Below, piece by piece: positions 1-51,080 of a stretch of 64,000 bases of DNA. The number at the start of each line of letters is the position of its first letter. Positions within the stretch are counted from its first letter, which is position 1. Source of the DNA: Chiloscyllium plagiosum. Its lineage: Eukaryota. The DNA lies in NCBI RefSeq assembly GCF_004010195.1, contig NC_057719.1, forward strand, positions 43,029,248-43,093,247, in the 5' to 3' direction. A model generated the notes under the pieces. That model saw only the letters and a list, made by a program, of their open reading frames with translations. It ran no database searches and was not told the origin of the DNA. A program made the translations under genes and the position numbers.

Positions 1-362
1 TCCTCATCTCCCCTTCCCCCACCTCACCCCAGTTCCAAACTTCCAGCTCAGCACTGTCCCCATGACTTGTCCTACATGCCTATCTTCCTTTCCACCTATC
101 CACTCCACCCTCCTCTCTGACCTATCACCTCCATCCCCACCCCCATTCACCTATTGTACTCTATGCTACTTTCTCCCCACCCCCACCCTCCTCTCATTTA
201 TCTCTCCACCCTGCAGGCACTCTGCCTCTATTCCTGATGAAGGGCTTTTGTCCAAAATGTCGATTTTCCTGCTCCTCGGAAGCTGCCTGACTTGCTGTGC
301 TTTTCCAGTACCACTCTAATATTGAATCTGGTTTCCAGCATGTGCAGTCCTTGTTTTTACCT
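1..362 (+). mobile_element. Penelope-like element 3' end/pLTR (family A), truncated by window start
   Basis: Matches the 3' end of the PLE ORF at 27261-27330 (minus) and the pLTR at 28081-28308; decayed hammerhead ctgatga-agggc-tttt-gtcc-aaaatgtc at 234-261. Confidence 0.8.
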
Positions 363-500
363 ATTCTGAAGAAGGGTCACTGGACTGGAAATGTTAACTC
401 TGTTTAGTCTCCACAGATCCTACCAGACCTGCTAAGTTTCTCCAGCAATTTCTGTTCTTGTGTTTTCAGAACTCCAGCATCCACAGTTCTTTATTACAGT
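363..500 (+). mobile_element. Short PLE-tail element (family B) with hammerhead-like motif
   Basis: ctgaaga-agggtc-actg-gactg-gaaatgttaactctg, then ccagacctgctaagtttctccagcaatt; related to copies at 3195, 6205, 27097, 51885. Confidence 0.7.
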
Positions 501-599
501 TTACGCTTTTTATTAGTTTGCACCATTGCAAACATTCAATGTGAATGTCAGGAATACATAGATGTAAATATGTATTGCAGCACAACAAAGGTCCTGAAT

Positions 600-1250
600 G
601 ATTGCACCGGGAACCTGCAAAGTGGAATCTGCCCTGTAACATGATTGCCTTTGGTCACCTGCAGCATTTGGCTTCAGTAAAGAACCTGAATGCTGCTGCT
701 GGCTTAAGAACCACAGTCTAATCTGGTACCTTCCTAATCACAACCAAGAGGTTGTAGATGGTTTACAGTGTCAGTCTGTGATCCACATAGTATCATCATC
801 TCTGTATCTACAGAAGAGCCAAAATCCTGTCATGATACGTTTATTCTGTTTCAATGATCCTTCCTTAACACTTTCAGGCAGACAGCTGTCACAGGTTTGC
901 CTGCTAGGTCAGTGAATCAGACATGAGCTGGGTTAATTCCAAGTGGCTGCATTCGTAAACTCCAAAATTACTTTTTCTTGGCTTTTTACACAAGTGATCA
1001 TATAACTTTTCAATAACTTTGTTGGTGAAACTCTAATGGCGGTGAATGTCTCAAATTCAAGTCTGCTGTATTCACATTCTTGTGTTGAGAGTCACTGAAA
1101 GGGGCGTGAGCACCTTATTTTATGAGAACTGACTCAGACTGTCTTATAGCTGGTTGCACAATACTGTAATCTGGCAATTTAACTATAATACCTCTTTGTT
1201 ATCTGTTGACATCCTCTGCCTTCAATCTTTCTGAAGGAGTCTGAGCACCA
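600..1250 (-). mobile_element. Possible highly decayed Gypsy integrase region
   Basis: Minus-strand translation has weak integrase C-terminal-like patches (ILEFTNA.., INPAHV); lies downstream of the gag/pol remnants at 2150-3180 in the same orientation. Confidence 0.3.
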
Positions 1251-2149
1251 CTTGGTGACATGATGGTATAGACGCGATGAGCCAAAGGGCCTCTTCTACA
1301 TTGCATGATTCTATGATTCTATGAGGTCAGGTTCAAGTGACTGAATGACTTAGTTTCATAGTGTGGTATACAAAGAGAACAATTGTAATACTTTAACTCA
1401 TTTAATTCAATTAATTCAACTTATCTTTACATAATGTTACAGAATAAAGAACAAACCATATCATTTCATCAATTCATTTACTTAGTGAGACAAGATGATC
1501 AGTTATTCTGATTGCCAGAGAGAAACTGAAACAGGGTAGGCTCTAACTGTAATCTGGATGATGTGGAATCCCAGGAAATGGAAACAATACTCCTGCAAGT
1601 GGAACCTTCTGAAAAATCCCCATAAGAGTTGGAAACTTCAGTTAGACTTAATAGTAACCGAGGAAACATTTGAGTATTAATAACCTACTCTGAGTCCTGG
1701 GCAATTATTAAACTGAGCTCCTGACTCCAGCAACTACAGCTCCCCCAAACCCCTTACCACCCACTGAGGCCTAACAACAAACCTATGACCAGGTTTTTAA
1801 TTGCCCCTTGACCCAACCCAACTCCCACTCCATGCTAGACCCAACACATCATCCACTACTACCAGGAGGAACCCACCCTGCACTGGCCTGAACACTTTGG
1901 AGTCAAATGTCTTATACAACTGTCAAACCTGATGCTCCTCACCTCTAGTGGGACTCAGACTAACCCAGGTCAAGTGGCCTATCCTGACGTTTCCTGTGAC
2001 AGCCCCTGAACAAACTCCCCTACCCTGATCAGATTGATACCTCACTGAACCCAAGACTCCAAATTCATCTTGAGCCTAACATGTATGCCTATTATTTCAG
2101 ATTTGCAGCATCTACATTGCCTTAATTTTATATGTACATCTACATCCCT

Positions 2150-3180: not shown

Positions 3181-3194
3181 GAGGTAGAGATCAC

Positions 3195-3296
3195 AGGTTC
3201 TGAGGAAGGGTCACCAGACCTGAAACATTAACTCTGGATTTCTCTCCACAGTTGCTGCCAAACCTGCTGAGCTTTTCCAGCAACTTCAGTTTTTGT
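3195..3296 (+). mobile_element. Short PLE-tail element (family B) with hammerhead-like motif
   Basis: caggtt-ctgagga-agggtc-acca-gacct-gaaac-att-aactctg. Confidence 0.7.
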
Positions 3297-4516
3297 TAGC
3301 GATCACAGCACAGCTACAGTCAGCCAGTACTCTCAGCAGAATTACATTTTTCCAACAGTGTCTAACTCCTCAGTATCTAATAGAATAGTGTTACTTACAT
3401 GAGTCTGCTGCAGTATTATGAATACGTAGTCCACATTTCTGCCAGTGTCCACTCTCTGTGTTGCTGACTGATAGCGTCCTTCCGGTATTTGCTTTCTTGA
3501 CCTTTTCAGTGCTAGATATTGCAATACAGCAAGGTACTGTTGACATAAACATGGTGTTCAACTGCAGTGCATATGGTAGGTTGTGTGTAATGCAACCTCC
3601 AGTCTCTGGTGATGGAGGCCTGGATATTGAGTCAAGATTCATGAGTACATATCAAGCAAATTATTCTGATCTGAATGATATGTAATGACCAATCAAGGAA
3701 CAACATGTACCTCAGTTTGTAATATGGACTCAACATTTGATCTTGGTAATAATTCAAAAACGTACAAACATCACTATTAAAATAAAACAAATATTTGTAC
3801 AAATGTTTTGATCCTAGATTTTAAATTGTGATATAATTACCATAGTTTGTTTTCAATAAGTCAAAATCAATGAGCTCCAATGCAATATATGCTCATTCTC
3901 TCCTCTTCTGCATTTACAGCTTCACAATTTAGATTGGTTGCTATAGCTACTAGGAGGGGAAGCTAAGAATAAAAGTCTTATGACTGCAAGAGCTTATGCA
4001 ATAAACTAGAAAATATTGCCATGTTTTTATGAGTATATCAGGACAGACCATCTTAAGTGGGTAACTCAAATGATTTATCATCATCTGCCTTTCTGCATGA
4101 TGCTATTTGTTATACGATCACTGATAAAATTAACTTCTGCAATTTCTCATGATCACATATGATATTTTTGCAAGATTGGATTATGACTATTTAATTTAGT
4201 TCTCAGTTAAATATTTGTTCTAGTTGCACAGTATTTTCATGTGATTGGATCACTGAAGTACATTTCTTCTTCACCCTCACCCCCCAGGCAGTGAAATGAA
4301 AAGTAAGGAGTCCACTTGCCAATTGTGCACTCTGATCAGGCGCTGTCCCATTCTAGCAACACAGAGTAAAACCTATTTCATTTTGAACCATTTGAATTAT
4401 TGTAATTTATTCTAAAAGTTAAACAAATTAATAATAAAAATTGTGTAACAGTTGAGGGGAAATGATTGATTAGTGGTATTGTCTCTGGACAAGTAATCCA
4501 GAGACTCAGATAATAT

Positions 4517-5560
4517 TAACAATTTTTGAAAAGATTTGTAGCTCAGGTTGATGATAAATATGTAAGTTAGCTCACTGAGCTGGAAGGTTTGTTTTCAGAC
4601 ATTTCTTCACCATGACTAGGTAACATCATCAGTGAGAGTCTCCGGTGAAGCACTGGTGGTATGTCCCACTTCTAAGGGATGGTAGATAGAATCTAAATCG
4701 ACGTATTTATTGATGGAGCTCTGGTTAGAATGCCATGCCTCTAAGAATTCTCGTGTATGTCTTTGTATGCCTGTCCTAGGGTGTGTGTTGTCCTAGTCAA
4801 AGTGGTGTCCTTTTTTGTCTGAATGTATAGAAATTAGTGATACTGGGTCATGTCTTTTGGCGGCCAGTTGGTGATCATGTATCCTGGTGGCAAGTTTTCT
4901 GCTAGTTTGTCCAATGTAATTTTTTTTACAATTCTTGTATGATATCTTGTAAATGACGTTAGTTTTGCTGGTAGTATCTAATGGATCCTTTAGGTTCATT
5001 GGTCACTGTTTAAGTGTGTTGGTAGGTTTGTGGGCTACCATAATGCCAAGGGGTCTGAGTAGTCTGAAAGTCATTCCTGATATGTCTTTGATGTACGGTA
5101 ATGTGGCTATAGGTTTTGGTTGCATTGTGTCTGCTTGTTTGAGTTTTTTTTCTAAGGAATTGGCAGATTGTGTTTATTGGGTACCCATTTTTCTTGAAAA
5201 CATTGAATAGATATTTTTCTTCTGCTTTTTGTAGTTCTTGGGTATTGCAGTGTGATGTAGCTCATTGAAATAATGTCTTGATGCAGCTCTATTTGTTGGT
5301 GTTGAGATGATTGTTTCTGAAGTTAAGTTTTTGATCTGTGTTTATTGTTTTTCTGTAGGCGCTGGTTTGAACCTTTCTGTTAACTGTATGTTCAACTGTT
5401 GCGTCTAGAAATCGGAGTTTGTTCTCGTTCTCCTCCTCTTTTGTGAATTTTATGCCTTTCAGGATATTGTTGATGGTGTTGTATGTTTCTTCTAACTTGT
5501 TCCATTTTGTGATGACAAAGGTGTCATCTACGTAGCAGACCAAAGATTTGGGTTGGATCA
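4517..5560 (-). mobile_element. 5'-truncated Penelope-like element (family C): RT C-terminus, GIY-YIG endonuclease, 3' hammerhead
   Basis: ORF 5289-5621 (YVDDTFVI..IKFTKEEENENKLRFLD) and ORF 4793-4999 (NVIYKISYKNCKKNYIGQTSRKLATRIHDH); 7-bp TSD ataatat at 4510-4516 and 5561-5567. Confidence 0.9.
4596..4634 (-). ncRNA. Type I hammerhead ribozyme-like motif (family C)
   Basis: Minus strand reads ca-CUGAUGA-u-GUUACC-uagucau-GGUGAA-GAAAU-GUC-ug; closing pair of stem II is mutated. Confidence 0.65.
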
Positions 5561-6204
5561 ATAATATCCTGAGGACCTGGGCTCGAAACACACCACAGCA
5601 GATGGTGAAATTTGAATTCAATAAAAGTCTAGAATTAAAGGTCTAATGATGAGCAACTATCAAAAAATACCATTTGAATCACTAATATCCTTTTGAGAAG
5701 GAACCTCGCACCTTTACCTGGTCTTGCCTACATGTGATCCAAGAACCACAGCAGTGTGATTGACTCTCAACTGCCCTCTGAAATTGCCCAGTATGCCATT
5801 TAATTTATCAACCACTGAAAAGGAAAAAGGAAAGTAACCATATGTCATTGATTAAGATGAAATTGGCAATTGTGGCCCTGTCAGACCTGCAAAGTTCTCC
5901 TGACTGATATCTGGAAGCTAGGTCCAGAATTGGGGAAGCTATCTCACAGACTAGTCAAACAACAGCCTAACAGAGTCAAGGAATCATACTTTGTACACAA
6001 TGTCCCAGATAACTCCATCTCCCTCCCTGAGTATGTCCTGTCCCACCAGCAAGACAGACCAAGCAGAGATGGTGGTACGGAGATATATAGTCACAAGGGA
6101 TGTGCTATAGGTGTCTCACAGCATCAGGTCAAACATAAGCAAGAAAACCTGCTGCTAAGTATCATGTACTGCCTTCCTTCTGCTGACAAATCAATGCTCC
6201 TCTG

Positions 6205-6305
6205 CCAAACAGAAGGTGCTGGAGAAACTCAGCAAGTCTGGCAGCATCTGAGAAGAGAGAAAGAGAATTAACATTTCAAGTCCAATATGATTTCTTCAGA
6301 ACTGA
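6205..6305 (-). mobile_element. Short PLE-tail element (family B)
   Basis: Minus strand: cagttctgaagaaatcatattggacttgaaatgttaattctc..ccagacttgctgagtttctccagcacc. Confidence 0.6.
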
Positions 6306-6489
6306 GAGTTTACTTCCTTGCCTTTCTCATCTTTCAGTTTGCAATTATACTTCTATCCTCTGCCACACATTGGCACTCATCATCTTCACCACCAGTTTAC
6401 AAGTTTACACTGATGCTCAGCACTTGACCCCCCCCCCACCCCGCTCCACACCCCTAATCATAATGGTCATTCTCCTAAGTTGCCTCCTT

Positions 6490-6990
6490 GACATAGAACA
6501 AAATTAGGCAATTCAGCCCATCGTGCCTGGGTCAGCCCTCATAAAGAACAATCCGCTTCATCCCACTCCCAGATCTTTCCCCATAGCTCCGTCAGTGCTC
6601 ACGTTATGAGTACTTAACAATTCCCTTCAATGGCTGCTACTATATCTACTTCCATCACTCCCTTCAGGCTGTGCATTATAGTCTGTAAGTCTGCTTAATT
6701 TTCCCTCAAATGATGCCAATTATAATTTTAACAATTACTTTAAACTTATGTATTTTGGTTATATACCTTTTGCCACTGAAAATAGTTTCTCTTTATTTAT
6801 TCCTCACAGCATTTCATGATTTTGAACTCATATATTAAAATTCCCTTTAAGGTTTCTGCTGTAAAGAGAACAGTTCCAGCTCTTTAATCTCTAAATATAA
6901 CTAAAGTCCCACAACCGCCATGCCATTCTAATAAATGTTCTCAGCACCCTTTCCTAGGTCATGCTGTCTCTCCTCAAACTTGCTATCTTT
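6490..6990 (-). mobile_element. Decayed CR1 LINE 3' fragment
   Basis: CR1 3'-tail antisense pattern (ggcaattcagcccat..., aaagagaacagttccagc, cattctaataaatgttctcagcaccct). Confidence 0.6.
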
Positions 6991-8308
6991 TGTTATTGCA
7001 TGCATTGCTTCTTTGTGCTATGATACAATGATCATATTTCTTCATTAATTAAAACTTATTGCTTTATTCTTTTGTGCCCCCCACCACTGTCCAACATTTC
7101 GTTGATAAGTATTCTATCATCAGTGCATTTGATCAAAGGGCATTTTGTTTAAGAAACAGCAATTAGCCTGATCTATTATTTATGAAAGAAACAGCAGACT
7201 CCTGCAGCAGCAACAGAAACCACTAAGAGGCACATTGTCCCAACCCTATACTGGAATAGAATTACCTCTCTTTTTGAATCCTGGTAGTGTAGTCTCACTG
7301 TTATTTATTTCCTATTAGATATTTAATAATTATAATTGCATGTTATAACATACATTGAATTTTAAAAATCGACATGGCATCAAAAATATTGCTAACAATA
7401 TCTAACTTTTAAGTTTATAGGTTCCACATTCTCCATGTTTAATACTGACTCTTGGCAGCACATCAAGTATATGGCAACAGAGGTTGTGAGTGACACCCTT
7501 GTTAGTGAAAAACTTGTATTTTTCCTACTGTGCATAAGAACCTTCATTTCAACAAATTCATGCTCAGACAATGTGGCACCATCTACCTGAGGCATCAAGT
7601 ACTTGGATGCCTCCACGTGTTCGGTCATCTTTTCAAATAAAGTGAAGATTTGAACAGGGACACAGCTGGAGTTACACAAAGCATTACCTTCAATTTAAGT
7701 TGCCATTGGAAAAATCAAACAATCCTATAGGAATAATCACAGACAGTGTGCTTTCTTTCATTTTTTTTATTGCGAAGTGCATCTGCTGGAATGCAGCAGC
7801 ACCAAGTACTGATCCAAAACGTACAGTTCATCAGGTAATTGTTCCCAAAGGACTGTGTTTCCCGTCATGTTTATTTCATCCAACTGTGTTTATTGAAGGG
7901 GAATAAAATGCAAGACAGGCTAGTCGACTCAATAAATGGAGTACAAGCCAAGCAATGTTCAATGATTCATGTAATGTAATCATGCCAGGCTGTGCCAATA
8001 AAGTCAGTTGGATGGCTTCACTCCTGTCGGCTTAGGTGGCATCATTAAAATCAAATAAGAAATCTGAGACTGTTTAGGAGGAAGGGAAGTGCTGATAATA
8101 GTTAGCCCTTGCAGAAGGACAGGAGACTATCAACAACAAAATATAAATAACAAAATTATAAATTCCTTCAGTTCTAGATGTCATTTCAATAACAGTGACA
8201 ATCACAGTGGTTCTTTGCAACATGATGTATTTGGCACATTTCTGAAAAAAATAGGTTGAGTTGGAGTGTATGTGTAAATTCTTTTCCTTTCAACTCTATC
8301 AACACAGT

Positions 8309-10145: not shown

Positions 10146-11981
10146 TCAAAAGCAATCTTGATTACATCATTGTTCATTACAGATTGAAGGTAGTTATCTC
10201 TGTGAAGTAGAGGTAATCACAGGGGACTTTAAAATTGACAGCTGTGGGCCACAATTCACAAAGACAATCCAAGATCTCATTGGCTGTACAGGCTGATTTC
10301 CTCTTGCCTTGAATAGAAAGCATTCACTAATATGCCTTTCTCGGGTGATGAGGAAGAAACATAGAGGAATCTCTATGGAGGAATGCGAATCACTAATCAT
10401 AGAGCAGAGTCATTTAAATGTAATAAGTAAAATTATAGAAAATGAAGTAAGCAATACAAATTACCAGCTCTACGTTTTTTTTTAGTGGTTGGGCCTTCCT
10501 TTTTTTCCTTTCTATTTTAGGACTTCTGGTCAGGTCTGTGATTCTAATTTTAATATCTGGAGAACTGGGACAGATATGTCAACTTGTGCAGCACAAAGAA
10601 TCAATGCTCACCCACCTGGCATTTCTTCCAATACTTGATCACCTCACATTGCTGTTGGTACAATGCAGTACACATAAGTCAGTATGATTCACAGTCAGTA
10701 TAGGAGATGAACCTTGAGTTATTATTACACTTTACAGGGCGTGTAACCATTTTAACATAAAACATGATTCGACAATGATTTAAATGTTTCCATTTTAACT
10801 ATAAAGCCAAAACTGCACACTTACATTCAGGAAATTGCTAAGAATAATTTTGAGAAAAACGATAGGAATTCCACTTCAGGTTCTGAACACAGGATGAAAC
10901 AAGTCTTTTGGCAAAACCTTCATGGTCAGGTGACTTTAAAACCTGAAAGCATAGGAATGTTCCCTTTCTTTCTCAGTAAGGTCTGACCTTGGCTATTCAT
11001 TGACCTTCTTCTCATTCCAACTTGTCTATTATGAGATAACTCATAATCATCTGCCATGACTGAGGCATATTTTACACGGATTGTCACCTTTCAGGTGAGA
11101 CTTTAATCCCAAAGTAACATCATATAGGGGTCTGTGTGACTGGCTGGGTCAACACCTAGTGTGGGCAGATTGTCAGTTTGATGGTTGAGAGTGTGGGATC
11201 CACGTTTATGAGACAGTGGGATATTGAAGGAGCAAATACATAACGCAGTTGTTTTCACACCTCAAATATACTTAATTTTCAAGCATTTCATGGCCTATCT
11301 GTGACGTATGCAGAAAGAAGATGCTCAGAGGTCAGAAACTGGTTATAGATTAATTGCACCATGCCAATGGTGCTTGCAATTTGAGACTTGGCATCTCAAT
11401 GATGTTGAAGTTAGCAGTAATGACTTTAAAAGAAGCCAATGCTCACTAAAGATTAACCAATATTCATACAGCTTCCAAGCATACAGTGGGAGAAGCACAC
11501 CATTGCTTGATCATGTGTCACATGTCATTGTCTGTGAATGCAGTGAGAAGTTGATTGGTTGATGGTGCTCTGGAACATGAAGGGTTTAGACAAAATGTGC
11601 TAGTTACACAGCTGGCATGGTTCATTCACATGGCGCTCACATAGGGTGCAGCATGTCTCGATGTATGATCAAGTGTGCCTCAGCTCTCAAAAACAATAAT
11701 CACCACTGACTCTTTTGAGATCTAAGAACCTCTTTCACTCCTTATGCTCCCCATGTAGGTCATTTCCATTGAGAACTCTGGGCCCAGCCACTGTTGGGAT
11801 GTTGATTGCTGCGGCTGCCTGTCCAGGAAGGCAAAAGCAAATCCAGAAGGTCCAGGTGCCATGGTAAGCATGAGAGCAGCAGTAGGCTGGTGCAGAGCAT
11901 GAGGAGTATCTGGCCTAGGGAGAGGTCATAGCTGCAGGGCCCTGAGAATGCGTGGGGCCTACAGGAGGCTAAGTGCTTTTC

Positions 11982-12114
11982 AGGAGAAAGTGAGGTCTGC
12001 AGATGCTGGAGATCAGAGCTGGAAATGTGTTGCTGGAAAAGCGCAGCAGGTCAGGCAGCATCCAGGGAACAGGAGAATCGACGTTTCGGGCATAAGCCCT
12101 TCTTCAGGAATGAA
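11982..12114 (-). mobile_element. Short PLE-tail element (family A), young copy
   Basis: ggagaaagtgaggtctgcagatgctggagatc..ggaaaagcgcagcaggtcaggcagcatcc..gacgtttcgggcataagcccttcttcaggaatg; CpGs retained. Confidence 0.85.
12076..12112 (-). ncRNA. Minimal type I hammerhead ribozyme, intact core (family A)
   Basis: Minus strand: cauuc-CUGAAGA-a-GGGC-uuau-GCCC-GAAAC-GUC-gauu; all core nucleotides present. Confidence 0.75.
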
Positions 12115-12136
12115 GGCTCTGAATGAACCAAGGGTG

Positions 12137-15603: not shown

Positions 15604-15680
15604 AAGTTAAAAATCACACAACACCAGGTTATAATCCAACAGGTTTAATTGGAAGCACTAGCATTCAGAGCACTGCAAAG
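15604..15680 (-). mobile_element. PLE-tail element (family D) fragment
   Basis: aaaaatcacacaacaccaggttataatccaacaggtttaattggaagcactagc, shared with 21085, 41560, 50995. Confidence 0.65.
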
Positions 15681-15714: not shown

Positions 15715-16687
15715 TGTTATGAAGTTGAAGGCATAGGTACTGTATCTTTAAGAGAGAGTGAATGCTGTTTTGCACTGACACCTTGCAAGCACCTATCATA
15801 AGACTAGCTAGTAGTCTCAGATTGTATTGGAAAATTGAAAATATGTAACATTTGGCTGTGAAATAGATACCTGAGTTGGTTGCTGTTTTGACAACAATTC
15901 GAATTTAACCAGTTTAAATTATGCCCCAGGATACTAAAACCCAATCGAGTTTGAATTTATTGTTTTTGCCGACATTGAACCAATGAGACGATCTGATGTT
16001 CGTGGTATAACAAAATAGGCATTTTGAAAGTCAGACAGAGCAACTGTCATTGACAGAGAGTAACTGCCATCAAGAAAGACTACCATTCAAAAACACTCTT
16101 GATCAAAAGTATCCTTTTTATATGAAGCACCTTTGTAGTAAAAGGCAGAAGACAACCTAGGCAGATCTTCAGCCAAAAGGAGGAGGACACCGGAGATGAC
16201 AATCACTGTGTGGGGGTTTTGAAATTAAGTTGATGTAACTTTAATACGGGTTTTTATTGGAAAAGTATATTGTTATAGAGTTGGAGGCAGATAACAAGCA
16301 GTTAAGAGAAAGGGAGGCTTAGAATTGTGAATAGTTGTTGTTTAATGTTCACTTTTAGAGTTAAGATTAGATTAGATTACTTACAGGAAACAGGCCCTTC
16401 GGCCCAACAAGTCCACACCGACCCGCCGAAGCGCAACCCACCCATACCCCTACATTTACCCCTTTAACCTAACACTACGGGCAATTTAGCATGGCCAATT
16501 CACCTGACCTGCACATCTTTGGACTGTGGGAGGAAACACAGAATAAGGAATATATTGATATTATGTTTCTTTAAATAGTGGAATTTGTGAGTTCTCTGTC
16601 ACTCACACCTTTAAGATTATGAGGTGAGGCGAGCTTTTCTGGGTGTTTGGTTTAATTAACAGAAAGGTTCACTGCCATGTCGTAACA
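15715..16687 (+). mobile_element. Solo LTR (probably Gypsy) with nested HE1 SINE
   Basis: Ends TGTTATGA...TCGTAACA; 4-bp TSD cttc at 15711-15714 and 16688-16691; orientation tentative. Confidence 0.8.
16364..16537 (-). mobile_element. HE1-type V-SINE, 5'-truncated
   Basis: gggcaatttagcatggccaattcacctgacctgcacatctttggactgtgggaggaaac plus CR1-derived tail with (gatta)n. Confidence 0.85.
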
Positions 16688-21084: not shown

Positions 21085-21640
21085 TTGATGTGGAGGTGCC
21101 GGTATTGGACTGGGGTGGACAAAGTTAAAAATCACACAACACCAGGTTACAGTCCAACAAGTTTATTTGAAAGTACTAGCTTTCAGAGTGCTAGTGGGGC
21201 AGGATCACAAGACACAGAACTTATCACGAAAGATCACGGTGTCATGCAACTTAAATGATATATTGAACCATCCTAGATAGCTGTGAAGTCTTTCATCTTT
21301 TAGAATGGGTTACAGGTTTCGGTTCATTAATATGTAAATCCTAGAACTTCTTTTAAGTCACATTTTTGAGATAACAAGGTTTTATAAAATAAGATGACAT
21401 CTCAGCTCAGACAATGTATTAAAGGTGTGAGGATTGAGTGAGTCTGTATCCCAATCTTGAGTCAGACTGGTTCTATTTCCAAAGTAGGAATTCATAAAAT
21501 GTAGTACAGGAATTGACTGCTTGCATTGACTGCCTGCAGGTTGTGTGCTTTTTGAGCAAAAATAGAACATACCTGCAAATACAATTCTGCAAATGCAAAT
21601 TCACCCCATAGTTATACGCAACTCGCATACACACACACAC
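21085..21640 (-). mobile_element. PLE-tail element (family D), longer copy
   Basis: ttggactggggtggacaaagttaaaaatcacacaacaccagg..ctagctttcagagtgc; hammerhead region partly deleted; ends at (ca)n. Confidence 0.65.
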
Positions 21641-27096: not shown

Positions 27097-27228
27097 AGAA
27101 GCAAAATACTGCAGAAGCTGGAAATCGGAAACAAACACTGAGAATATTGGAGAAACTCTTTTCGGCGGCATCAATGGAGAGAGAAACAAAGTTAACTTTT
27201 TGAGTTCGGTATGAACTTTTCTTCAGAT
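27097..27228 (-). mobile_element. Short PLE-tail element (family B)
   Basis: Minus strand: tctgaagaaaagttcataccgaactcaaaaagttaactttg..ttccagcttctgcagtattttgc. Confidence 0.6.
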
Positions 27229-28308
27229 AGGTGGGAAAGAAGATGGACAGATGGGACGGGTCATGAGGGCAGTGCTGAGCTAGGAGTTTGGAGCTGGGAT
27301 GAGGTGGGGGGAGGGAAAATGAAGAAACTGGTGAAGTCCACATTGATGCCATGGGGTTGGAGGGTCCCGAGACGGAAGATGAGGCGTTCTTCCTCCAGGT
27401 GTCGGGTGGTAAGGGAGTGGCGATGGAGGAGGCCCAGGACCTGCCTGTCTTCAGCAGAGTGGGAGGGGAAGTTAAAGTGTTCGCCCACAGAGCAGTGGGC
27501 TTCACTGGTGTGGGTGTCCCAGAGATGTTCTCTGAAGCACTCTGTGAGTAGGTGTCCTGTCTCCCCAATGTGTGGAGACCGCATTGGGAGCAATGGATAC
27601 AGTAAATGACATGTGAGGAAGTGCAGGTGAAACTTTGATGGATGTGGAAGGCCTTTGGGGCCTTGGATGGAGTGGGGGGAGGGTGGGGGAGAAGGAGGTG
27701 GTGTGGGTGCAGGTTTTGTAATTCCTGCAGTTGCTGGGGAAGGTGCCAGGAGGGAAGGGTGGGTTCGTGGAGGGGCGGGAAATGGATGAGATGCTCTGGA
27801 GGGCATCATCGACCATGTGGGAGGGGAAATTGTGGTTGTTAAAGAAGGAGGCCATTTGGTATGTTCTATGGTGGAATTAGTCCTCCTGGGAGCAGATGCG
27901 GCAGAGGCATAAGAACTGGGAATAAGGGATAGTGTTTTTCCAGGAGGCAGGGTGGGAGGAGGTGTGGTCCAGGTAGCTGTGGGAGTCAGTGGGTTTGTAG
28001 AAAATGTCAGTGTTGAGTCGGTCACCATTGATGGAGATGGAGAGGTTGAGGTAGAGGAGGGAGGTGTCTGAGATGGTCCTTTACCCCCACCTCTGTCCAC
28101 CTATTGCACTCTCAGCTACCTTTCCCACAGCCCCACCCCCTCCCATTTATCTCTCCACCCCCGAGGCTCACAGCCTCATTTCTGATGAAGGGCTTTTGCC
28201 CAAAACGTCAATTTTCCTGCCCCTCAGAAGCTGCCTGACCTGCTGTGCTTTTCCAGCACCACACTCTTGACTCTAACCTCCAGCATCTGCAGTCCTCACT
28301 TTCGCCTA
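27229..28308 (-). mobile_element. Penelope-like element (family A): RT C-terminus and GIY-YIG domain on minus strand, with an inverted pLTR (28081-28308, plus strand)
   Basis: HIGETGHLLTECFREHL..SVGEHFN..EEERLIFRLGTLQPHGINVDF (ORF 27261-28100); another frame gives LNTDIFYKPTDSHSYLD..HPASWKNTIPYSQF; frameshifted. Confidence 0.9.
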
Positions 28309-28839: not shown

Positions 28840-29073
28840 GGCGAAAGTGAGGACTGCAGATGCTGGAGATCAGAGTCAAGATTAGAGTGGTGCTGTAAAA
28901 GCACAGCAAGTCCGGCAGCATCCGAGGAGCAGGAAACTTGATGTTTCGGGCAAGAGCCCTTCATCAGGAATGAGGCCATTCTTGATAAAGGGCTCTTGCC
29001 CGAAACATCGATTTTCCTGCTCCTCCGATGCTGCCTGACCTGCTGTGCTTTTTCAGCACCACTTTAATCTTGA
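28840..29073. mobile_element. Palindromic (head-to-head) family A pLTR element
   Basis: Inverted arms about 28875-28972 and 28977-29074; 14-bp direct repeat caatagtaccactg at 28826-28839 and 29074-29087. Confidence 0.9.
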
Positions 29074-29494: not shown

Positions 29495-29947
29495 AGGAGT
29501 GGCAGAAGGAGTTTAATTTAGACAAATGTGCGGTGTTGCATTTTGTTAAGTCAAATCAGAGGAGTGCTCATACACTTAATGGTGGGGTCCTGGGGAGTGT
29601 TATTGAAGAAAGAGACCTTGGGGTGAAGGTTCATAGCTTCTTGGAGATGGAATCACAGGTAGATAGGGCAGTGAAGAAGACGCTTGGTACACTTGCCTTT
29701 ACTGGTCAGTGCATTGAGTATAGGAGTTGGGATGTCATGTTTCAGCTGTACAGGACGTTGTTTAGGTCACTTTTGGAATACTGCATTAAATTCTGGTTTC
29801 CCTTGCCATAGAAAAGATGCTGTTAAACTTGAAAGGTCATAGAAAAGATTTACAAGGATATTGCCAGGATTGGAGGGTTTGAGGTGGAGGGAAGAGCTAA
29901 ATAGACTGGGGCTATTTTCCCCAAAGCATCAGAGGCTGAGAGGTGGC
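29495..29947 (+). mobile_element. CR1 LINE fragment
   Basis: ORF 29533-29811: LHFVKSN..EERDLGVKVH..LYRTLFRSLLEYC. Confidence 0.9.
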
Positions 29948-31214: not shown

Positions 31215-32090
31215 TTGACAACTACAGACCTGGCGACTAAATGGTCAGAGAAATTCAAGTTGCAGATGATCAAGAGGCCAGGGTGAGAAGTGCGCAGAGA
31301 TTTTGGCGGATTGTAGCCTTCAGAAGAGATCACAAAGACAGGAGGATACATAAGGATTTGAAATTAAGGATTTTCAAGGTTTTTAAGCTTAAAGAAATAA
31401 ATATTAAAAATGATTAAAGAGTGAAAGTTCATCAGGAGCCACTGTGGATTATGAGCAGTGAAATGATAGATAAATAAGACATGGTGCAATATGAGCAGTA
31501 GAGTTCTAGATGACTTCAAGTTTATAGAGAATGGAACATGAGACACCAGCTTGGAGAGCATAGGAGTAGTCAAGTGTAAAAGCATCAAAGGCAGACAAAG
31601 AATTTCCATAGTTGAGAGTGTGTTGCCGGAAAAGTATACCAGGTCAGGCAGCATCCAAGGAGCAGGAAAATCGGCGTTTCGGGCCGGAGCCCTTCAACAG
31701 GAGTGAGGCTGAGAGCTCTCCACCCCCGAGGCTCCCAACCTCATTCCTGATGAAGAGCTCCGGTCTGAAACATGATTTTCCTGCTCCTCGGATGCTGCCT
31801 GACCTGCTGTGCTTTTCCAGCAACACACTCTCAACTCTGAACTCCAGCATCTGCAGACCTCACAGCCTCCTAAAGAAATTCCACAGCAGATGAGCTGAAG
31901 CAACAGCAAATGTGTGATTGGACGTCTAACTCAATATCAAATCTGACACTAAGGGTTAAGATGATTGGGCACGTTCTCAGGCAGTTAACAGGAAAAGGGC
32001 TGAGTTCATGACTAGGCAACAGAGTCTGTGATGGGCAGTGAAGACATTGGAAGAAACTCCTTCTCTTGGATGTTGAACAGGCATTGTAAC
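31215..32090 (-). mobile_element. Decayed L2-like LINE fragments, interrupted by a palindromic PLE element
   Basis: ggagtagtcaagtgtaaaagcatcaaaggcag is antisense of an AFxxSRLDY-like motif; ORF 31364-31654. Confidence 0.5.
31612..31871. mobile_element. Palindromic family A pLTR element
   Basis: Inverted arms about 31611-31708 and 31739-31835; imperfect 15-bp TSD aaagaatttccatag / aaagaaattccacag (31597-31611, 31872-31886). Confidence 0.85.
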
Positions 32091-40249: not shown

Positions 40250-41520
40250 TGACACTCAGTTTTCATTCTGCCAGGCTATCCGGCTCCTGAACTCTTTACA
40301 ACTTTGGTCCAAATATGGACGAAGAGCTGAATTCAAACGCAAATGTGAGAGTGACAGTCCTTGATACCAAGGCAGCATTTGACTGATGGTAGCATCATTT
40401 TTCCCCTGGCAAAACTACACTCAATGGAAAATAAGGGGGAAACTTTGCACTGGTTGAAGTCATATCTAGCAATACAAAATGGTTCTGGCTCTTGGAGCTC
40501 AATCACCTAAGCTCCAACCTATTATTACAGAAATCCTCAGTAGTGTTGCATTCTCAATCTTCTTTTCAATGACCTTCCTTCCATTTGCCATCCAATCATT
40601 TGTTAATGATTGCACACTGTTCAAAACAATTTATATTTCCTCAGATACTGAAGCAATCCACATCAATATGCAACAAGACCTGGGCAATATCCTGGCTTGG
40701 ACTCATTTTCTGACACACAAGTGCCAGGCAATGACCATTTTCACTGAAAAAGAATCCAATCATCATCCCTTGACATTCAATGGTATTAACATTGTGCAGT
40801 CCACCCATTATCAGCATCCCAAGGATTATCATGGACCAGAAACTGAACTAGCCCAGTCATATAATTCGGCGAAAGTGGAAACTGCAGATGCTGGAGATCT
40901 GAGTCAAAATTAGAGTGGTGCTGGAAAAGCACAGCAGGTCAGGCAGCATCCAAGGAGCAGGAAAAGGATGCTGCCTGACCTGCTGTGCGTTTCCAGCATC
41001 ACACTCTTCAACTCCAGAATCTGCAGTCCTCACTTTCTGCTAGTCTTTCACTATCTACAAGGCACAACACTCTTACCTGGATGAGTGCAGCACCAACAGC
41101 ACTCAAGAAGCTCAATACCACATAGGACAAAGCAGTCTGCTAAATTGACACCACATCCACCACTCATACCACCAGTGTGTACCATCAACAAGTCGTACTG
41201 CAATTCTTCACCAAGGCTCCTTAGACAGTAGCTTCCAAACATATGACGTCTACCATCTTGAAGGACAAGGGCAGCAGATACAAGGGAGCACCACCACCTG
41301 CAAACTCTGCTACAAGCTCTACACTACTCTGCCTTGGAAATCTATCCCAATATATCCCTGTTCTTTCTCCGTCGCCGAATCAAAATCCTGGATATTTTAA
41401 TAGCACTGCTGGTGTCCATATATCCCAATGGCAGCTCACCCCTACCATTTCCAGGTTAATTAAAGATGGATAATAAATGTTGGCCCAGCCACCAAAGTCT
41501 ACATATAATGAACAAATTTT
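40250..41520 (+). mobile_element. CR1/L2-group LINE 3' fragment (same family as 4465)
   Basis: LDTKAAFD, FVNDCTLF..QQDLGNILAW..KCQAMT in ORF 40479-40913; tail aataaatgttggcccagcca. Confidence 0.75.
40868..41040. mobile_element. Palindromic family A pLTR element lacking the central hammerheads
   Basis: Inverted arms about 40871-40951 and 40966-41037. Confidence 0.8.
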
Positions 41521-41559
41521 TAAAAACTGGCCAGCACTGTGCAGAGAATATCCTCCATA

Positions 41560-41680
41560 TTCACTGCCAGTATTGGACTAGGGTGGACAAAGTCAGAAGT
41601 CACACAACACCAAGTTATAGTCCAACAGATTTATCTAAAATTACAAGCTTTCGGAGCGCAGCTCCTTCATCGGGTGAAGC
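41560..41680 (-). mobile_element. PLE-tail element (family D) with hammerhead-like motif
   Basis: Minus strand: cac-CCGAUGA-a-GGAGC-ugc-GCUCC-GAAAG-CUU-gu at 41643-41676. Confidence 0.7.
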
Positions 41681-43229: not shown

Positions 43230-44509
43230 CAATGCCGCAATTCGCCGACAGGGGGAGGTGGGGACACCGCCGCTGATCCTGACGGGCGAAACAGAACCTG
43301 AAGTGTACGGCAAGAGGGAGGAGCTCCTACAGTCTGAGCCTGGTTACCGGCAATGTTAGCGTCAGTCTGACCTTGGTTACTGGGGCTCTGAGCTACAGTT
43401 GGACCCTGGTTACTGGGGCTCTGAGCTACAGTCGGAGCCTGGTTAATGGGGCTCTGAGCTACAGTTGGAGACTGGTTACCTGGATTCTGAGCTACAGTCT
43501 GACGCTGGTTACTGGGGCTCTGAGCTACAACGTGACCCTGGTTACTGGGGCTCTGAGCTACAGTCTGAGCCTGATTACTGGGGCTCTGAGCTACAGTCGG
43601 AGCCCGGTTACCTGGATTCTGAGCTACAGTCTGACCCTGGTTACTGTGGTTGTGAGCTACAACGTGACCCTGGTTACTGGGGCTCTGAACTACAGTCTGA
43701 GCCTGATTACCTGGGCTCAGAGTTACAGTCTGACCCTGGTTACTAGTGCTCTGAGCTACAGTCTGAGCCAGATTACCTGGTTTGGAGCTACAGTCTGACC
43801 CTGGTTACTGGGGCAGTCAGCGTCAGTCTGACCCTGGTTACTGGGGCTCTGGGCTACAGCCTGACCCTGGTTACTGGGGCTCTGAGCTACAGTCTGACCC
43901 TGGTTACTGGGGCAGTCAGCGTCAGTTTGAGCCTGGTTACTGGGGCTCTAGGCTACAGTCTGAGCCTGGTTACTGGGGCTCTGGGTTACAGTCTGACCCT
44001 CGTTACTGGGGCAGTCAGCGTCAGTCTGAGCCTGGTTACTGGGGCTCTGGGCTACAGTCTGAGCCTGGTTACTGGGGCTCTGGGTTACAGTCTGACCCTC
44101 GTTACTGGGGCTCTGAGCTACAGTCTGACCCTGGTTACTGAGGCAGTCAGCGTCAGTCTGAGCCTGGTTACCGGGGCTGTCAGGAACGGTAGCCGCCAGG
44201 TCACAGGTACCAAGCAGCTGGATCGCAGCTTTCGGATTCCATTCTGCTGGTCTCTGGGGTTTGTAGCTCTTTCCACCCCCGCCGTTGAATGCCTTTTCGA
44301 GCTGACTGATCCACCGACTCCGCCCGTTCTCGGACGGCAGTTCCTGGGCTGGACTCTGATGAAATCGGGGACTGTGGTTGGATTGGACCTCTCTCTTGAG
44401 GTGTGTATTAACACTCTTGCTGGAGTTAAAAGAGCAGTTTGGAGAAGTGTTATAACTGGACGTGACATCGGCAAAGTCTCTCACTGATTTATATTAGGCA
44501 AACCCCCAG
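43230..44509 (+). promoter_or_regulatory. CpG-enriched putative promoter / non-coding first exon
   Basis: CpG-rich segments on both sides of the minisatellite (43230-43310, 44180-44350) in an otherwise CpG-poor window; donor cag|gtaaat at 44509/44510; CpG enrichment tails off to about 45500. Confidence 0.5.
43325..44180. repeat. Minisatellite, 33-bp unit, about 25 copies
   Basis: Consensus ctgagctacagtctgaccctggttactggggct; translates as (SELQSDPGYWG)n or (LVTGALSYSLT)n. Confidence 0.95.
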
Positions 44510-46107: not shown

Positions 46108-46441
46108 TACAGTGGCTCAGTGGTTAGCAGTGCTGCCTCAAAGTACCAGGGACCTGGGTTCGATTCCAGCCTTGAGTGACTGTCCATGTGATGTTTGAAC
46201 ATTCTTCTCATATCTGCGTGGGTTTCCTCTGACAGTCCAAAGATGTGCAGGTTAGGTGGATCGGCCATGCTAAATTGCCTTGTAGCATCCAGGGATATAC
46301 AGGTTAGTTGAGTTAACCATGGTTTTAAAAAAAACATGCAGGGTTACAGGGATAGAATGGGTCAGGATGGATGCTCTTTGAAGATTGGTGCAGACCTGAT
46401 GGGCCAAATGGCCTCTTTCTGAACTGTAGGAATTCTATGAT
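46108..46441 (+). mobile_element. HE1-type V-SINE
   Basis: cagtggctcagtggttagcagtgctgcctc..gggttcgattcc (A/B boxes), V domain, tail ggaattctatga. Confidence 0.9.
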
Positions 46442-47629: not shown

Positions 47630-47905
47630 TCAGTTTAACCCAGTGGTAGTACACTTTCTTCCAATCTAATGATCATGAATTTGAGCCTTGTTTCATATGC
47701 AGCGCAAAGGGAGTGCTGCATTTTCAGAGGTTCTGACTTTCAGATGAGAAGTTCAATTAGGATCTTGTTTTACTATACCACTGGATGTAAGAAATTTCAT
47801 AACATTATTGTTAAAGTATAGAGTCATCCAGTATCTGAATTAACATTCCTTCTTCAGCCAGTGCCACCAAAAGTAAATTATCTATTAATTTATTCAGCTG
47901 CTTTC
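47630..47905 (+). mobile_element. Decayed Deu-domain SINE
   Basis: agggagtgctgcattttcagaggttctgactttcagatgaga..ctggatgtaagaaatttcataacattatt..ttccttcttcagccagtgccaccaaaa. Confidence 0.6.
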
Positions 47906-48868
47906 CTATTATCAATGTAAGGAAGAAGAAAGTGGAAACTAACTCCTTCGTTCTAACATAGCAGGTCAGAACACATTTTGACCTGAAATACTTTGTGTTA
48001 AATCATTGACTTTTGCACTAGTAGTGGATTTATTACAAGTAATCTCTGTACCCGAAGACCAAGTTTGTATTCTTATTTTGTTGCGCAGTGCTCGCTACTG
48101 AAAATGTGTTCAGCCACTGAAAATGACTTTTGGTTTTACCACATTTTGATTCATCATCAGTAATGTAAACCGTGTAGGAGGCGAAGTCCTGTTAGCAAAA
48201 TACAAATTCTTCATACAAATCCAATTTCTTTCAACCTTTACGTTTCTTAAAGCATTGATGTTTGAAATTGGTATTTTGTTACCCTTTCCTCCTTGTCCTC
48301 GAAAGATGAGGAGAGATGCCTTCTTGAACGGCTATAAGACGTGTCAAATAAGCCAGAATTTATGTTGGTCTGGGTATAATAGCTTTTTGTATGTTTGCAT
48401 AATACCATGCCTAATCTAAAAAATATGCAAAGAATGCTTAACGTTTTTTTCATTTTTTCATAGATTTCATTTCTTTTTTCAGGCTGAAGGAGATAATGGG
48501 CACAAGTGTTGAAGGTCATCTGAAAGCAACACTAGTCTTGCTGGGAAAACAGCTTCATCTATAAAACCATAAACTGCAAAAAGATAGCAAGTATATGTTT
48601 ACACTTTCATAAGCATAGTGTGCAAATTAATAGATCTTTGTATGCAAACTGCAACAGAGTACAGTAAACAAAAACTGGCTGGTGTGTTTCTTTTTCAAAG
48701 CCATTTCATCAGTAATGTTTTAAACTGAGACACACATACAAGCTTGAAACAGAAGTCATTAACGGAAGTAAATTTTCATTATTAATACCCATTGGAGCTA
48801 CAGGTATTCTGAATTTCTTTTGTATGAGAACTACTTACTAGTACAGTCATTAACTATGTGCTGTCAAC

Positions 48869-49855
48869 ATGATAACTGTTGTTATAGATTGTCAAGAAAT
48901 ATCAGCAGCTGTACATTTGCAACAGGATGAAGAAAGCGACAATACAAACAACTTTCTCCAGAACATGGCAGAATGCTTCATGGAACTAAATGGCAATATG
49001 GAAATCTCTGTTCCTTTTGATGATTGTGGATTAGGTGTCAGTAATTCTTCTCTGAGCCAAAATTGTATAGAGGAACAGGATCTTTGCAAAGTTCTTGAAA
49101 ACCAAAGAGACACCACAACTGTACTGAGCACTGAAAAGGCTATCAGTTCAGAAGCGTTAGATCCCAATGCTTCAACTAATGACAGCACAACAGGCTGTAT
49201 GGAGGATCCTGTTGGCAACATGAAACATATCTTAAATGGAGCTGATTTAATGGGGATGAGAAAGGATACATTGCTTAATGCCTCAACAAGTAAAACATTG
49301 TGCTCATCTAAAGGTGAAGAAAACAGTGAATTATGGAGTGACTTTGCAGGTTACTGTAAAACATCTGTTGTACAGCAGCAGTTATTTGGTACTTTTCATG
49401 AATTGTCTTTGAGGGAAAAAGATGATTCTGCTGAGAAGAGTTTTCAGCATTCCAAAATTCCTAATGGTTACTTCACAAATCATCATTTTCCAATCCATCA
49501 TCACAATCCTACAAATAACAAATGTGATAATGAATTGCAAACCTCTGTCTCCACTATTAATGCTTGTGCTCCAATGTGCACGATGTTAAAATTAAATTCT
49601 TCTGTGAATACTGAGGAAGATTTACTTGGATGCAGCAATCCAGAACCACCTGCAGTTTTTGTTGATAACAATTTTGCAGATTCTGCAGTAAATAGGACAT
49701 TTGGAAGTGATGGACAATTAGTCAATGACACAATTCAGATTATTAACTACAAGGAAACTGAATTTTCAGGCCTTGGCTCAGCTGGAGCATTGTGCCCTGT
49801 GAATCCTCCATTTTCAGAAAACCAGGCGATCCTATCTGCAAGTTCAGCTCTGAAG
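48869..49855 (+). CDS. CLBA1: Large acidic first coding exon of an aftiphilin-family gene (probable CLBA1/C14orf79)
   Basis: 339-aa non-repeat ORF with aacATG start; acidic, low-complexity, with WSDF (49334-49345) and FGTF (49385-49396) adaptor-ear-type motifs; phase-0 donor aag|gttagt matches the next exon. Start codon and upstream exon boundary uncertain. Confidence 0.7.
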
Positions 49856-50994
49856 GTTAGTAGCCCAAGCTCTTTAGTAAGTAATTAAGTGGAGAAATGT
49901 CTCAATTTTAACTGTTCACTTAATTTACTGACTCATATTGTCTGACTCAAAATCTTTCAACCAGTGCTGATATCACTCGCACTTGCTGTTTTTAGTAAAG
50001 TTCAAAGAAAAATCTTTGAAAATGAATGAGTCAGTAAGGTTTTTCACACAATTTTAAAAGTGGTTTTGCAAGAGATGCTGATGGTGACATTCCTGCCTGA
50101 AACTTGCTGAACAAAACAATATAATGGAGTGAGTTGCAAGGCTGTAATCTCTAGTTTATCTGGAAAAAGCAAGTTGATTTACAAATTTGTATCTCTTTTA
50201 AATGATGATTTTCACAGTTGAGATCTTGTTTTGCTGATGATTTGGTTGTAATGTTGCCAAAAGATATGCAGTACTATGGGAGAATAAGTAGATTATTTCG
50301 TTATCTATATGGCTTTTTTGAGATAACAACTGAGTTTAGCACTTTGAGCCCAGCAGCTAACCATGACATAACTTGCACATTGAAAGAAGTATTGAAATGA
50401 GTAGTAGAAAATTGCATCAGAAATGATGAATAGCTCAACAGGTCAGGCTGCATCTTTTGAGGATGCAAATTGACAATTAGTACTGAATCCTTTTGCAAAA
50501 ACATGAAAATAGCTAAAGGGAAAGTAAGAAAACATGGAAAAGTAACAGAGTCGATTTGCATGAATGGGAGTATGGTAAAAGTTGAAATCTGGAGTATACC
50601 AAAAATGTAAATCACCAGTGTAATGTTGAGAAGTTGGAGAGGATTCCTGTGTGGAGGCCAACCGTGATCTCTCCTCCTCTTCTTTCTCCCATGTGGAGTT
50701 CCTACTGTTTCTAATTTATATAAACCAGGACAAGATCTGAACTCAAGTTTTGAACAAGCTGTTTTTAAGGAGGTTTAAGGATAGAGGATTGACCAAGAAA
50801 GCTTTGTCATCTTTTGAACTATTACAACGCTGTGGTTAAGGATTTTTGCAACAGACTGGCAATATTTGAGATTTATTTGGGATTAAAAGCAGTTTGGGGT
50901 CAAGTTTAGCACCAACGTTGCAACCAGTCTGATTTAACCTGTGACATTGTCAGGGACAGGGATATATAAGGCTATAGGAGTCCAAGTCAGGTGA

Positions 50995-51080
50995 TTTCTC
51001 CTGACAAAGGAGCATCGCTCCAAACGTTTGCAATTTCTAATAAACCTGTTGGGTTATAACCTGGTGTCATGTAACTTCTG
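50995..51080 (+). mobile_element. PLE-tail element (family D), decayed
   Basis: ctgacaaaggagcatcgctccaaacg..aataaacctgttgggttataacctggtgtc. Confidence 0.6.

What the first reader, a model, noticed from the sequence alone, without database searches (positions are those of the whole stretch)
234..51030. At least four sequence-distinct repeat families in 64 kb share the same hammerhead architecture
Seen: family A CUGAUGA-A-GGGC/GCCC-GAAAC-GUC (234, 12076, 28182, 28938, 28981, 31672, 31747); family B CUGA(A/G)GA-A-GGGUC/GACC-GAAAC-(G/A)UU (366, 3200, 6270, 27190); family C CUGAUGA-U-GUUACC/GGUGA-GAAA-U-GUC (4596); family D C(U/C)GAUGA-A-GGAGC/GCUCC-GAAAG-CU(U/A) (41643, 51001). Stem II sequences differ completely but stay complementary, and stem III remains palindromic (ACGU versus AGCU). 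That covariation supports a real, selected RNA structure. Inference: self-cleavage is a common part of PLE replication in this lineage, and ribozyme-like loci are very dense (more than 10 in this window).
Basis: partly seen in the sequence, partly recalled or inferred. Interest (0 to 1): 0.7.

Follow-up and report, generated by a model that had tools for sequence, protein, structure and literature searches.

The report
Shark Penelope stubs carrying decayed hammerheads
The motifs are real but ordinary: they are the end repeats of several Penelope-like jumping genes in a shark genome, each carrying the already described minimal hammerhead RNA, and 13 of the 14 copies are damaged leftovers that were likely copied from RNA the ribozyme had not cut.

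Summary
All 14 listed sites hold a minimal type I hammerhead motif, far above chance (9 sites with at most 2 defects; 0.16 in shuffles). Only 1 of 14 is defect-free; the rest decay mostly at CpG, and their cores are no better kept than flanking DNA. The motifs sit in pseudo-LTRs of Penelope-like elements (PLEs): Neptune-type (A, B, B', and D by homology) and Poseidon-type (C), with 34-36-nt tails, head-to-head pairs and target duplications. A and B are sisters, so there are three unrelated lineages, not four. Between-family covariation and family-A variation in public runs (at N7, loop II and CpG only) support selection on the source elements. The step 'self-cleavage is a common part of replication' is not supported: these copies span the cut site, common 5' boundaries lie just upstream of the ribozyme, and RNA reads show no ends at the cut. 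Architecture, multi-family variability, covariation and palindromic helix III were all described by Cervera and de la Pena (2014). I found no paper on shark PLE hammerheads. The scan noted the same thing many times before, in this genome and others. Verdict: new members of a known kind.

The parts
1..361 (+). Family A copy: 3' region of a Neptune-type PLE plus pLTR; hammerhead 234-261 (G12A, 15.2 C>U, 11.3 C>U)
   Evidence: 1-100 is 81% alike to the end of the ORF remnant at 27325-27226
364..475 (+). Family B solo pLTR directly after the A copy; hammerhead 366-395 (10.1-11.1 mismatch, 15.2 C>U)
3197..3296 (+). Family B solo pLTR; hammerhead 3200-3229 (16.2 G>A, 11.1 C>U); 12-bp target duplication with 1 mismatch (3185-3196 / 3297-3308)
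4520..5560 (-). Family C: Poseidon-type RT-thumb/GIY-YIG remnant (about 5560-4700, broken by stops and frameshifts) and pLTR; hammerhead 4632-4598 (10.1-11.1 mismatch, helix III AUGU)
6205..6303 (-). B' solo pLTR; decayed hammerhead 6299-6270
11979..12113 (-). Family A solo pLTR; the only defect-free hammerhead, 12107-12080; predicted cut between 12080 and 12079
15604..15671 (-).
21097..21191 (-).
27097..28077 (-). B' element: Neptune-type RT-thumb, degenerate Zn-finger linker and GIY-YIG remnant (28077-27348), pLTR; decayed hammerhead 27226-27194
28085..28306 (+). Family A 3' region and pLTR, head to head with the B' ORF remnant; hammerhead 28182-28209 (G12A, 1.1 G>A)
28840..29073 (.). Head-to-head family A pair (C3 at 28967- and 28982+), one insertion: perfect 14-bp target duplication (28826-28839 / 29074-29087); minus arm about 36 nt longer (tail)
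31607..31874 (.). Head-to-head family A pair (C3 at 31700- and 31747+), both broken; 12-bp target duplication with 1 mismatch; plus arm about 34 nt longer (tail)
40868..41042 (.).
41565..41679 (-). Family D solo pLTR; hammerhead 41673-41645, intact except U4C; helix III AGCU
50996..51082 (+). Family D solo pLTR; broken hammerhead from 51001 (G8A, G12 lost)
51890..51992 (-). B'-like fragment without the first core half

Best explanation
These are 100-135-nt stubs and a few longer 3' fragments of at least three lineages of Penelope-like retroelements, whose minimal hammerhead is likely kept by selection in the active source elements only, while the inserted copies are decaying and were likely reverse-transcribed from uncut RNA. 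Shown: PLE context, tails, head-to-head pairs, target duplications, compensatory stems, decay. Inferred: the element protein nicks DNA and starts reverse transcription at one of two internal sites about 92 and 127 nt downstream of C3 (hence arms with and without a tail); many cDNAs stop at a fixed point 3-6 nt upstream of C3, probably the 5' end of the element RNA, which leaves a stub holding the whole ribozyme. The ribozyme has no loop III, so it would fold only as a double hammerhead, two copies pairing through the palindrome ACGU or AGCU and swapping stem I strands; it would cut slowly, probably with help from the element protein, to process tandem precursor RNA or to regulate the element mRNA, not as a required step of each insertion.
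For: PLE proteins with RT, CxxxCxxC linker and GIY-YIG align upstream of B' and C; D-like hammerheads in 3 of 12 metagenome loci, two of which (L002, L004) lie downstream of Neptune-type remnants. Tails and target duplications (0 of 150 random pairs reach the 14-bp score, 2 of 150 reach the score of the two 12-bp cases). In three DNA runs family A varies at >=5% at N7 (20-36%), two loop II places and CpG sites, and at 0 of 17 non-CpG core and stem II places versus 3 of 6 free places (Fisher p 0.011). Window copies decay neutrally. The majority of contig ends laid at the B copy reads as an intact stem II, GAAAC, GUU and stem I (table 7). 5' loose ends peak at 12110-12113 and 364/3197. No RNA start or end pile-up among 3157 and 2295 reads. 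The double hammerhead scores -13.3 kcal/mol against -30.7 for the cofold minimum. PMC4209133 (low activity, dimers only) and PMC11167929 (protein-assisted, dispensable, internal RT starts, tail).
Against: No cleavage assay and no whole genome. One search showed 40 of 55 variant rows, seeding favours the reference letters, and depth falls toward C3. Loose ends at 12112-12113, 364 and 3197 also mark where this window's copies stop being homologous. The RNA library is poly(A), fragmented and read to 2%, so it is nearly blind to 5'-OH ends. One pair (40868-41042) has an arm starting near the cut, and 7 of 12 listed joint rows break within 12076-12080 (kind of joint not given; two of these places are also variant sites). 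Earlier scan notes report U6 joined at the cut sites, which I did not test; if true, cleavage does occur in the germ line.
Confidence: 0.7

Rival explanations
1. Cut-and-religate cycle: tandem transcripts are cut by double hammerheads, circularised, and the circles are the templates, so cleavage is a routine step even though copies span the site (the first reader's inference; model proposed in PMC4209133 and, for retrozymes, PMC7229834).
For: Core and stems are kept across lineages; re-ligation restores the site; one arm starts near the cut; untested earlier notes on U6 fusions.
Against: No tandem array of these units in the window; fixed boundaries just upstream of the core are not expected from a circle; the anole element inserts without cleavage in vitro and no RNA-seq reads end at its cut (PMC11167929); Naiad PLEs spread without canonical hammerheads (PMC8557442, passages).
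Confidence: 0.15
2. The fold is kept for a non-cleaving role (RNA dimerisation, packaging, protein binding, promoter or translation control) and catalysis is vestigial.
For: Stem I of A is only 2 bp before a U-U mismatch and no loop I-loop II contact is evident; the catalytic dimer is not favoured by energy; PMC4209133 says functions other than cleavage cannot be ruled out.
Against: It is the catalytic core letters that stay fixed while N7 and loop II vary; C3G/G8C rescue shows real hammerhead catalysis in an anole PLE (PMC11167929).
Confidence: 0.1
3. The dispersed copies are a host-used ribozyme network acting on transcripts of this locus.
For: At least one family B insertion (3197-3296) is shared with a related species (table 8, records 10 and 11); many copies are transcribed on both strands.
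Against: 13 of 14 copies are damaged and the core decays as fast as the flank.
Confidence: 0.03
4. Chance matches to a short consensus.
For: At 4 defects the descriptor is at background (20 observed, 13.2 shuffled).
Against: 9 versus 0.16 at <=2 defects; all sites sit at the same place in repeat families.
Confidence: 0.01

Closest known systems
Minimal type I hammerheads (min-HHR) in pLTRs of metazoan PLEs, Cervera and de la Pena 2014, PMC4209133 (read: parts 1 and 2 of 4, i.e. introduction, results, discussion, start of methods; one of its supplementary files searched, one could not be)
   Same: No loop III, palindromic 15.2-16.2, extra base between 9 and 10.1, G10.1-C11.1, several consensus families per genome with compensatory changes, mostly single dispersed copies, pairs on opposite strands 100-700 bp apart, fish Xena/Poseidon/Neptune elements, U3-A8 core variant.
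   Different: Sharks are not named in the parts I read. Stem II here is 4-6 bp and stem I 2-4 bp (there 7-8 and 4-5 for Schistosoma). Density here is 14 in 64 kb against 4,000-9,000 per genome reported for coelacanth and Xenopus.
Poseidon_Ac of the green anole, Frangieh et al. 2024, PMC11167929 (read: parts 1 and 2 of 4, the whole main text and start of methods)
   Same: Hammerhead in the pLTR, two internal RT starts that define an optional tail; family C is Poseidon-type.
   Different: There the ribozyme was tested (protein-assisted, dispensable for insertion); here nothing is tested and most families are Neptune-type.
Canonical EN+ PLE insertions with inverted pLTR, tail and target duplication (PMC3846280 and PMC8557442, passages)
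   Same: Head-to-head pairs, tail on one arm, target duplication, solo pLTRs; Neptune Zn-finger linker.
   Different: Here the pairs are pLTR-only (175-270 nt), and one head-to-head junction joins two subfamilies (B' and A).
Metazoan non-LTR retrozymes (PMC7229834, passages; Li et al. 2026, 10.64898/2026.07.22.740005, part 1, section 14 and passages)
   Same: Non-coding, hammerhead-bearing, PLE-derived; reported in one chondrichthyan genome; 16 hammerhead families in one coral genome.
   Different: Retrozymes are tandem arrays, mostly with canonical type I ribozymes; no tandem array of these units is in this window.

Membership tests
PLE minimal hammerhead (min-HHR) | Core CUGANGA...GAAA...NUH in type I order | tested here: met
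   Complete in 12107-; majority letters of family A in three DNA runs; family B majority. Broken in many window copies.
PLE minimal hammerhead (min-HHR) | No loop III; palindromic 15.1-16.1 (ACGU or AGCU) | tested here: met
   A and B ACGU, D AGCU (CG 8, GC 3 of 14 rows); the single C copy reads AUGU, so C is inconclusive.
PLE minimal hammerhead (min-HHR) | Unpaired base between 9 and 10.1; G10.1-C11.1 | tested here: met
   GC in 12 of 14 rows (8 rows were picked by a pattern that fixes it).
PLE minimal hammerhead (min-HHR) | Lies in the pLTR of a PLE | tested here: met
   ORF remnants directly upstream for B' and C; A by shared 3' region; D by homology to L002 and L004. B proper only by similarity to A and to L003.
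PLE minimal hammerhead (min-HHR) | Self-cleavage as a dimer or with protein | not testable with these tools
   Only energies and RNA ends (none seen, weak test).
Canonical type I hammerhead | 6-bp helix I with loop I-loop II tertiary contact | tested here: not met
   Stem I 2-4 bp; no Rfam hammerhead match at E<=1.
Neptune clade (A, B, B', D) | Zn-finger-like linker between RT and GIY-YIG | tested here: met
   Degenerate in the B' remnant, intact in its relatives and in L003/L004.
Neptune clade (A, B, B', D) | Placement in an RT phylogeny with named references | not tested
   No named reference set was at hand.
Penelope/Poseidon clade (C) | RT and C-terminal GIY-YIG without the Zn-finger linker | tested here: met
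   Translation of 5560-4700 minus; RT homolog from Stegostoma. No tree built.
Non-LTR retrozyme | Tandem array of two or more units, each with a hammerhead | tested here: not met
   No such array in the window.
Non-LTR retrozyme | Abundant circular RNA | not testable with these tools
   Only a poly(A) library was on hand.

The most novel reading that the evidence does not exclude
The stubs are a fossil record of the capped 5' end of PLE RNA, and each family's stem I plus helix III palindrome works as a lock and key for family-specific double hammerheads. With hundreds of thousands of copies passively transcribed, the still intact minority in host pre-mRNAs could be cut in trans by element RNA and protein, a genome-wide, family-coded cleavage system in sharks.
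Probability: 0.1. Interest if true: 0.7.

Novelty: new member of a known kind. Interest (0 to 1): 0.25.

Why it matters
The role of the PLE hammerhead is still open. Shark families are abundant enough that copy boundaries can be counted as a record of which RNA was copied, and their compensated stems give natural sequences for dimer and protein-assisted cleavage assays. The architecture itself adds nothing beyond the 2014 description.

Tried and rejected
No whole genome is held, so there is no census. Rfam: 4 weak miRNA hits, three on fold-back pairs, no hammerhead. Viral contigs: 0 loci by protein and 0 by pattern. No RNA holder listed in the run search; run X22 laid 0 reads, no test. The first MAFFT alignment misplaced family C, so C, B', 28982, 31700, 31747, 234 and 51001 were left out of the pair count (one search holds 6 window and 8 of 12 metagenome rows; L004 duplicates L001; L006, L007, L009 were dropped as poorly paired or redundant). 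In that count the number of pairs with two-sided change is not above shuffles (6 versus 5.1, 171 of 500). No further intact family in the window (next hits E>=0.18; 59452- with 3 defects is at background). Joints at 267, 408 and 3237 were rejected as cut-site marks because they fall at mismatches or an indel of the window copies. A U3-A8 subfamily was not seen: no row at C3 or G8 among 40 of 55 shown. No target duplication around the B'+A composite, the 40868-41042 pair or 12107. Host gene not identified: the 344-aa frame at 48854-49888 has no Pfam, homolog or Atlas hit. Literature: 0 papers for hammerhead ribozyme + chondrichthyan and Penelope + elasmobranch + ribozyme; none on shark PLE hammerheads in the 25 listed of 188. 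The library lacks most subscription papers, Repbase and Dfam, and supplements of the 2026 preprint and file 1 of PMC4209133 were not seen; they may name a shark.
Full report
Source. The window is shark-like DNA: the two retroelement remnants have their best named homologs in Chiloscyllium punctatum (65% identity) and Stegostoma tigrinum (68%). The species was not determined and no whole genome is held.

Observation. All 14 coordinates hold a hammerhead-derived motif on the + or - strand. A descriptor for the minimal type I hammerhead (core, unpaired base, four stem II pairs with G10.1-C11.1, complementary 15.2-16.2, two stem I pairs) gives 1, 3, 9 and 11 hits at 0, <=1, <=2 and <=3 defects, against 0, 0, 0.16 and 1.0 in 25 dinucleotide shuffles; at 4 defects it is at background, 20 against 13.2. 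I wrote the descriptor knowing these motifs. Only 12107- is defect-free. 41673- has U4C and 28182+ has lost G12. 6299-, 31747+ and 51001+ are outside the descriptor. A covariance model finds 12 of the 14 at E<=0.013 (6 are training rows), misses C and shows no further intact family. Rfam gives no hammerhead match.

Families. A and B share the downstream box (91% over 32 nt, E 5e-10); B and B' (6299, 27226) share 74% over 35 nt; C and D share nothing with these or each other (best E>=0.07). The region upstream of A at 234 is 81% alike over 100 nt to the end of the ORF remnant that precedes B'. So there are three unrelated pLTR lineages: A/B/B', C and D. B' follows an RT-thumb/GIY-YIG remnant (28077-27348, tblastn E 1e-35 and 5e-26) whose relatives are RT + CxxxCxxC linker + GIY-YIG proteins, the Neptune mark according to PMC8557442 (passages). 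C follows an RT/GIY-YIG remnant without that linker, hence Poseidon-type. D has no ORF in the window, but 3 of 12 loci from a pattern scan of metagenomes match it (79% over 78 nt; 89% over 37 nt twice) and two of these lie downstream of Neptune-type remnants. No tree was built.

Insertion anatomy. Two head-to-head A pairs each have one arm ending about 92 nt and one about 127 nt downstream of C3, a 34-36-nt tail. The pair at 28840-29073 has a perfect 14-bp target duplication (0 of 150 random pairs reach its score); the pair at 31607-31874 and the solo B at 3197-3296 have 12 bp with one mismatch (2 of 150 reach that score). This is the arrangement described for PLEs (PMC3846280 and PMC8557442, passages), and the tail matches the two internal reverse-transcription starts found for the anole element (PMC11167929). 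No tandem array of these units exists here, so they are not retrozymes.

Is the structure selected? On 14 rows (6 window, 8 metagenome) 89% of cells pair against 72.6 +/- 2.5 shuffled, and 26 cells show a change on both sides against 9.9 (0 of 500 each); the number of such pairs, 6, is not above shuffles (171 of 500). The metagenome rows were chosen by a pattern that fixes much of stems II and III, so only stem I (71% paired, two-sided changes in all 3 pairs) is free of that bias, and relatedness is not corrected. Better evidence comes from laying public runs on the intact A copy: in three DNA runs of three organisms, other letters reach 5% at N7 (20-36%), at two loop II places (up to 21%), at the three CpG sites (2-18%) and at several places downstream, but at none of 17 non-CpG core and stem II places, against 3 of 6 free places (Fisher p 0.011). 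Only 40 of 55 rows were shown and seeding favours the reference. The majority of contig ends at the B copy reads as an intact ribozyme. The window copies themselves are not protected: in six A copies (31747 left out for its indel) non-CpG core places differ at 4 of 60, downstream places at 20 of 288, CpG places at 7 of 36. Selection therefore acted on source elements, by inference, and not on these loci. Summed contig depth is 2-3 million over A and about 0.3 million over B and C, against about 10 over unique DNA; the tool warns that this is no copy number, but it points to very large families.

Does cleavage belong to replication? A copy that holds the core joined to the sequence downstream of the cut needs an uncut or re-ligated template. 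The best-supported 5' loose ends for A lie at 12110-12113, 3-6 nt upstream of C3, in all three DNA runs; those at 12111 (385, 403 and 442 contigs) have AT-rich flanks with agreement 0.31 and look like true insertion boundaries, whereas 12112-12113 reflect where this copy stops matching the family. B shows the same at 364 and 3197, with the same caveat. Of 11 listed joint rows at 12111, 8 begin with a letter that is G on the element strand (12 of 44 rows shown), which partly agrees with earlier notes on a cap-derived G; the Drosophila element has an internal promoter with a fixed start (PMC2377424, passages). In a poly(A) single-cell run no starts or ends pile up among 3157 and 2295 laid reads, and depth shows no step at the cut; that library is a weak test. 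Against my reading: one arm at 40965 starts 2-3 nt after the cut, 7 of 12 joint rows have a break at 12076-12080 (kind not given, variant sites nearby), and earlier notes report U6 joined at cut sites in this genome (not tested). In folding, stem II forms in all three folds of the intact A copy, the core does not, and the double hammerhead scores -13.3 kcal/mol against -30.7 for the best cofold (D: -11.7 against -24.1). This fits the published low activity of dimers (PMC4209133) and protein-assisted, dispensable cleavage (PMC11167929). In a double hammerhead the 5' strand of stem I of one copy pairs with the 3' strand of the other (established knowledge, recalled); as these strands differ among A (UC/GA), B (GUU/AAC), C (UCA/UGA) and D (AC/GU), cross-family dimers should fail. 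That is inference.

Comparison and novelty. Each structural point of the finding is stated in PMC4209133: several consensus families per genome full of covariations, the base between 9 and 10.1, G10.1-C11.1 and palindromic 15.2-16.2. A coral has 16 hammerhead families (PMC7229834, passages); one chondrichthyan genome has retrozymes (Li et al. 2026, passages and section 14). I found no paper on shark PLE hammerheads (one supplement of PMC4209133 searched without a shark hit); papers that appear only in these listings were not read. PMC6155905 was seen as passages. The scan has noted the same thing before: 259 findings in at least 25 genomes hold the search words, and 909 of 1852 notes in this genome fit 'hammerhead'. 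Verdict: real, correctly recognised, new members of a known kind; interest 0.25.

Noticed in passing
window 28982-28988 (+): This arm has C3>U and G8>A together, which keeps the 3-8 pair (the U3-A8 variant of PMC4209133), while its partner arm keeps C3-G8. No such subfamily was visible, so probably two chance changes.
   Followed up: partly
window 28075-28085: Head-to-head junction between a B' element with ORF remnant (-) and a family A 3' fragment (+): an inverted pair from two subfamilies, without a target duplication. Could be one event with two RNA templates or two insertions.
   Followed up: partly
window 361-366: A family B pLTR starts directly after the end of a family A copy on the same strand, 132 nt between the two cores.
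   Followed up: no
window 4528-5000: Family C reads in the poly(A) run are 3-5 times more frequent in one direction (67 vs 13, 14 vs 4, 33 vs 7), the element's sense if the library is stranded as usual; A and B show no such bias. May be element transcripts or A-rich internal priming.
   Followed up: partly
L002:881-953, L001:964-1000, L004:1328-1364: Metagenome contigs carry PLE ends 79-89% alike to family D, including the box downstream of the ribozyme in L002; host unknown.
   Followed up: partly
window 48854-49888 (+): Open frame of 344 codons, exon-like, with no Pfam, homolog or Atlas hit.
   Followed up: partly
window 22082-22705 and 43327-44178: Tandem arrays of 34-bp (18 copies) and 33-bp (26 copies) units; the second keeps long open frames.
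   Followed up: no
window 16386-16542, 25044-25296, 35606-35961, 46111-46439, 52690-53002: Five copies of another dispersed repeat of up to about 350 nt, 68-90% alike, SINE-like in size; not identified.
   Followed up: no
window 29499-29945, 56210-57022, 62236-62622: LINE-type RT remnants (Pfam RVT_1 at 56687-57022 and 62236-62622); 29499-29945 is 76% alike to 56210-56651.
   Followed up: no
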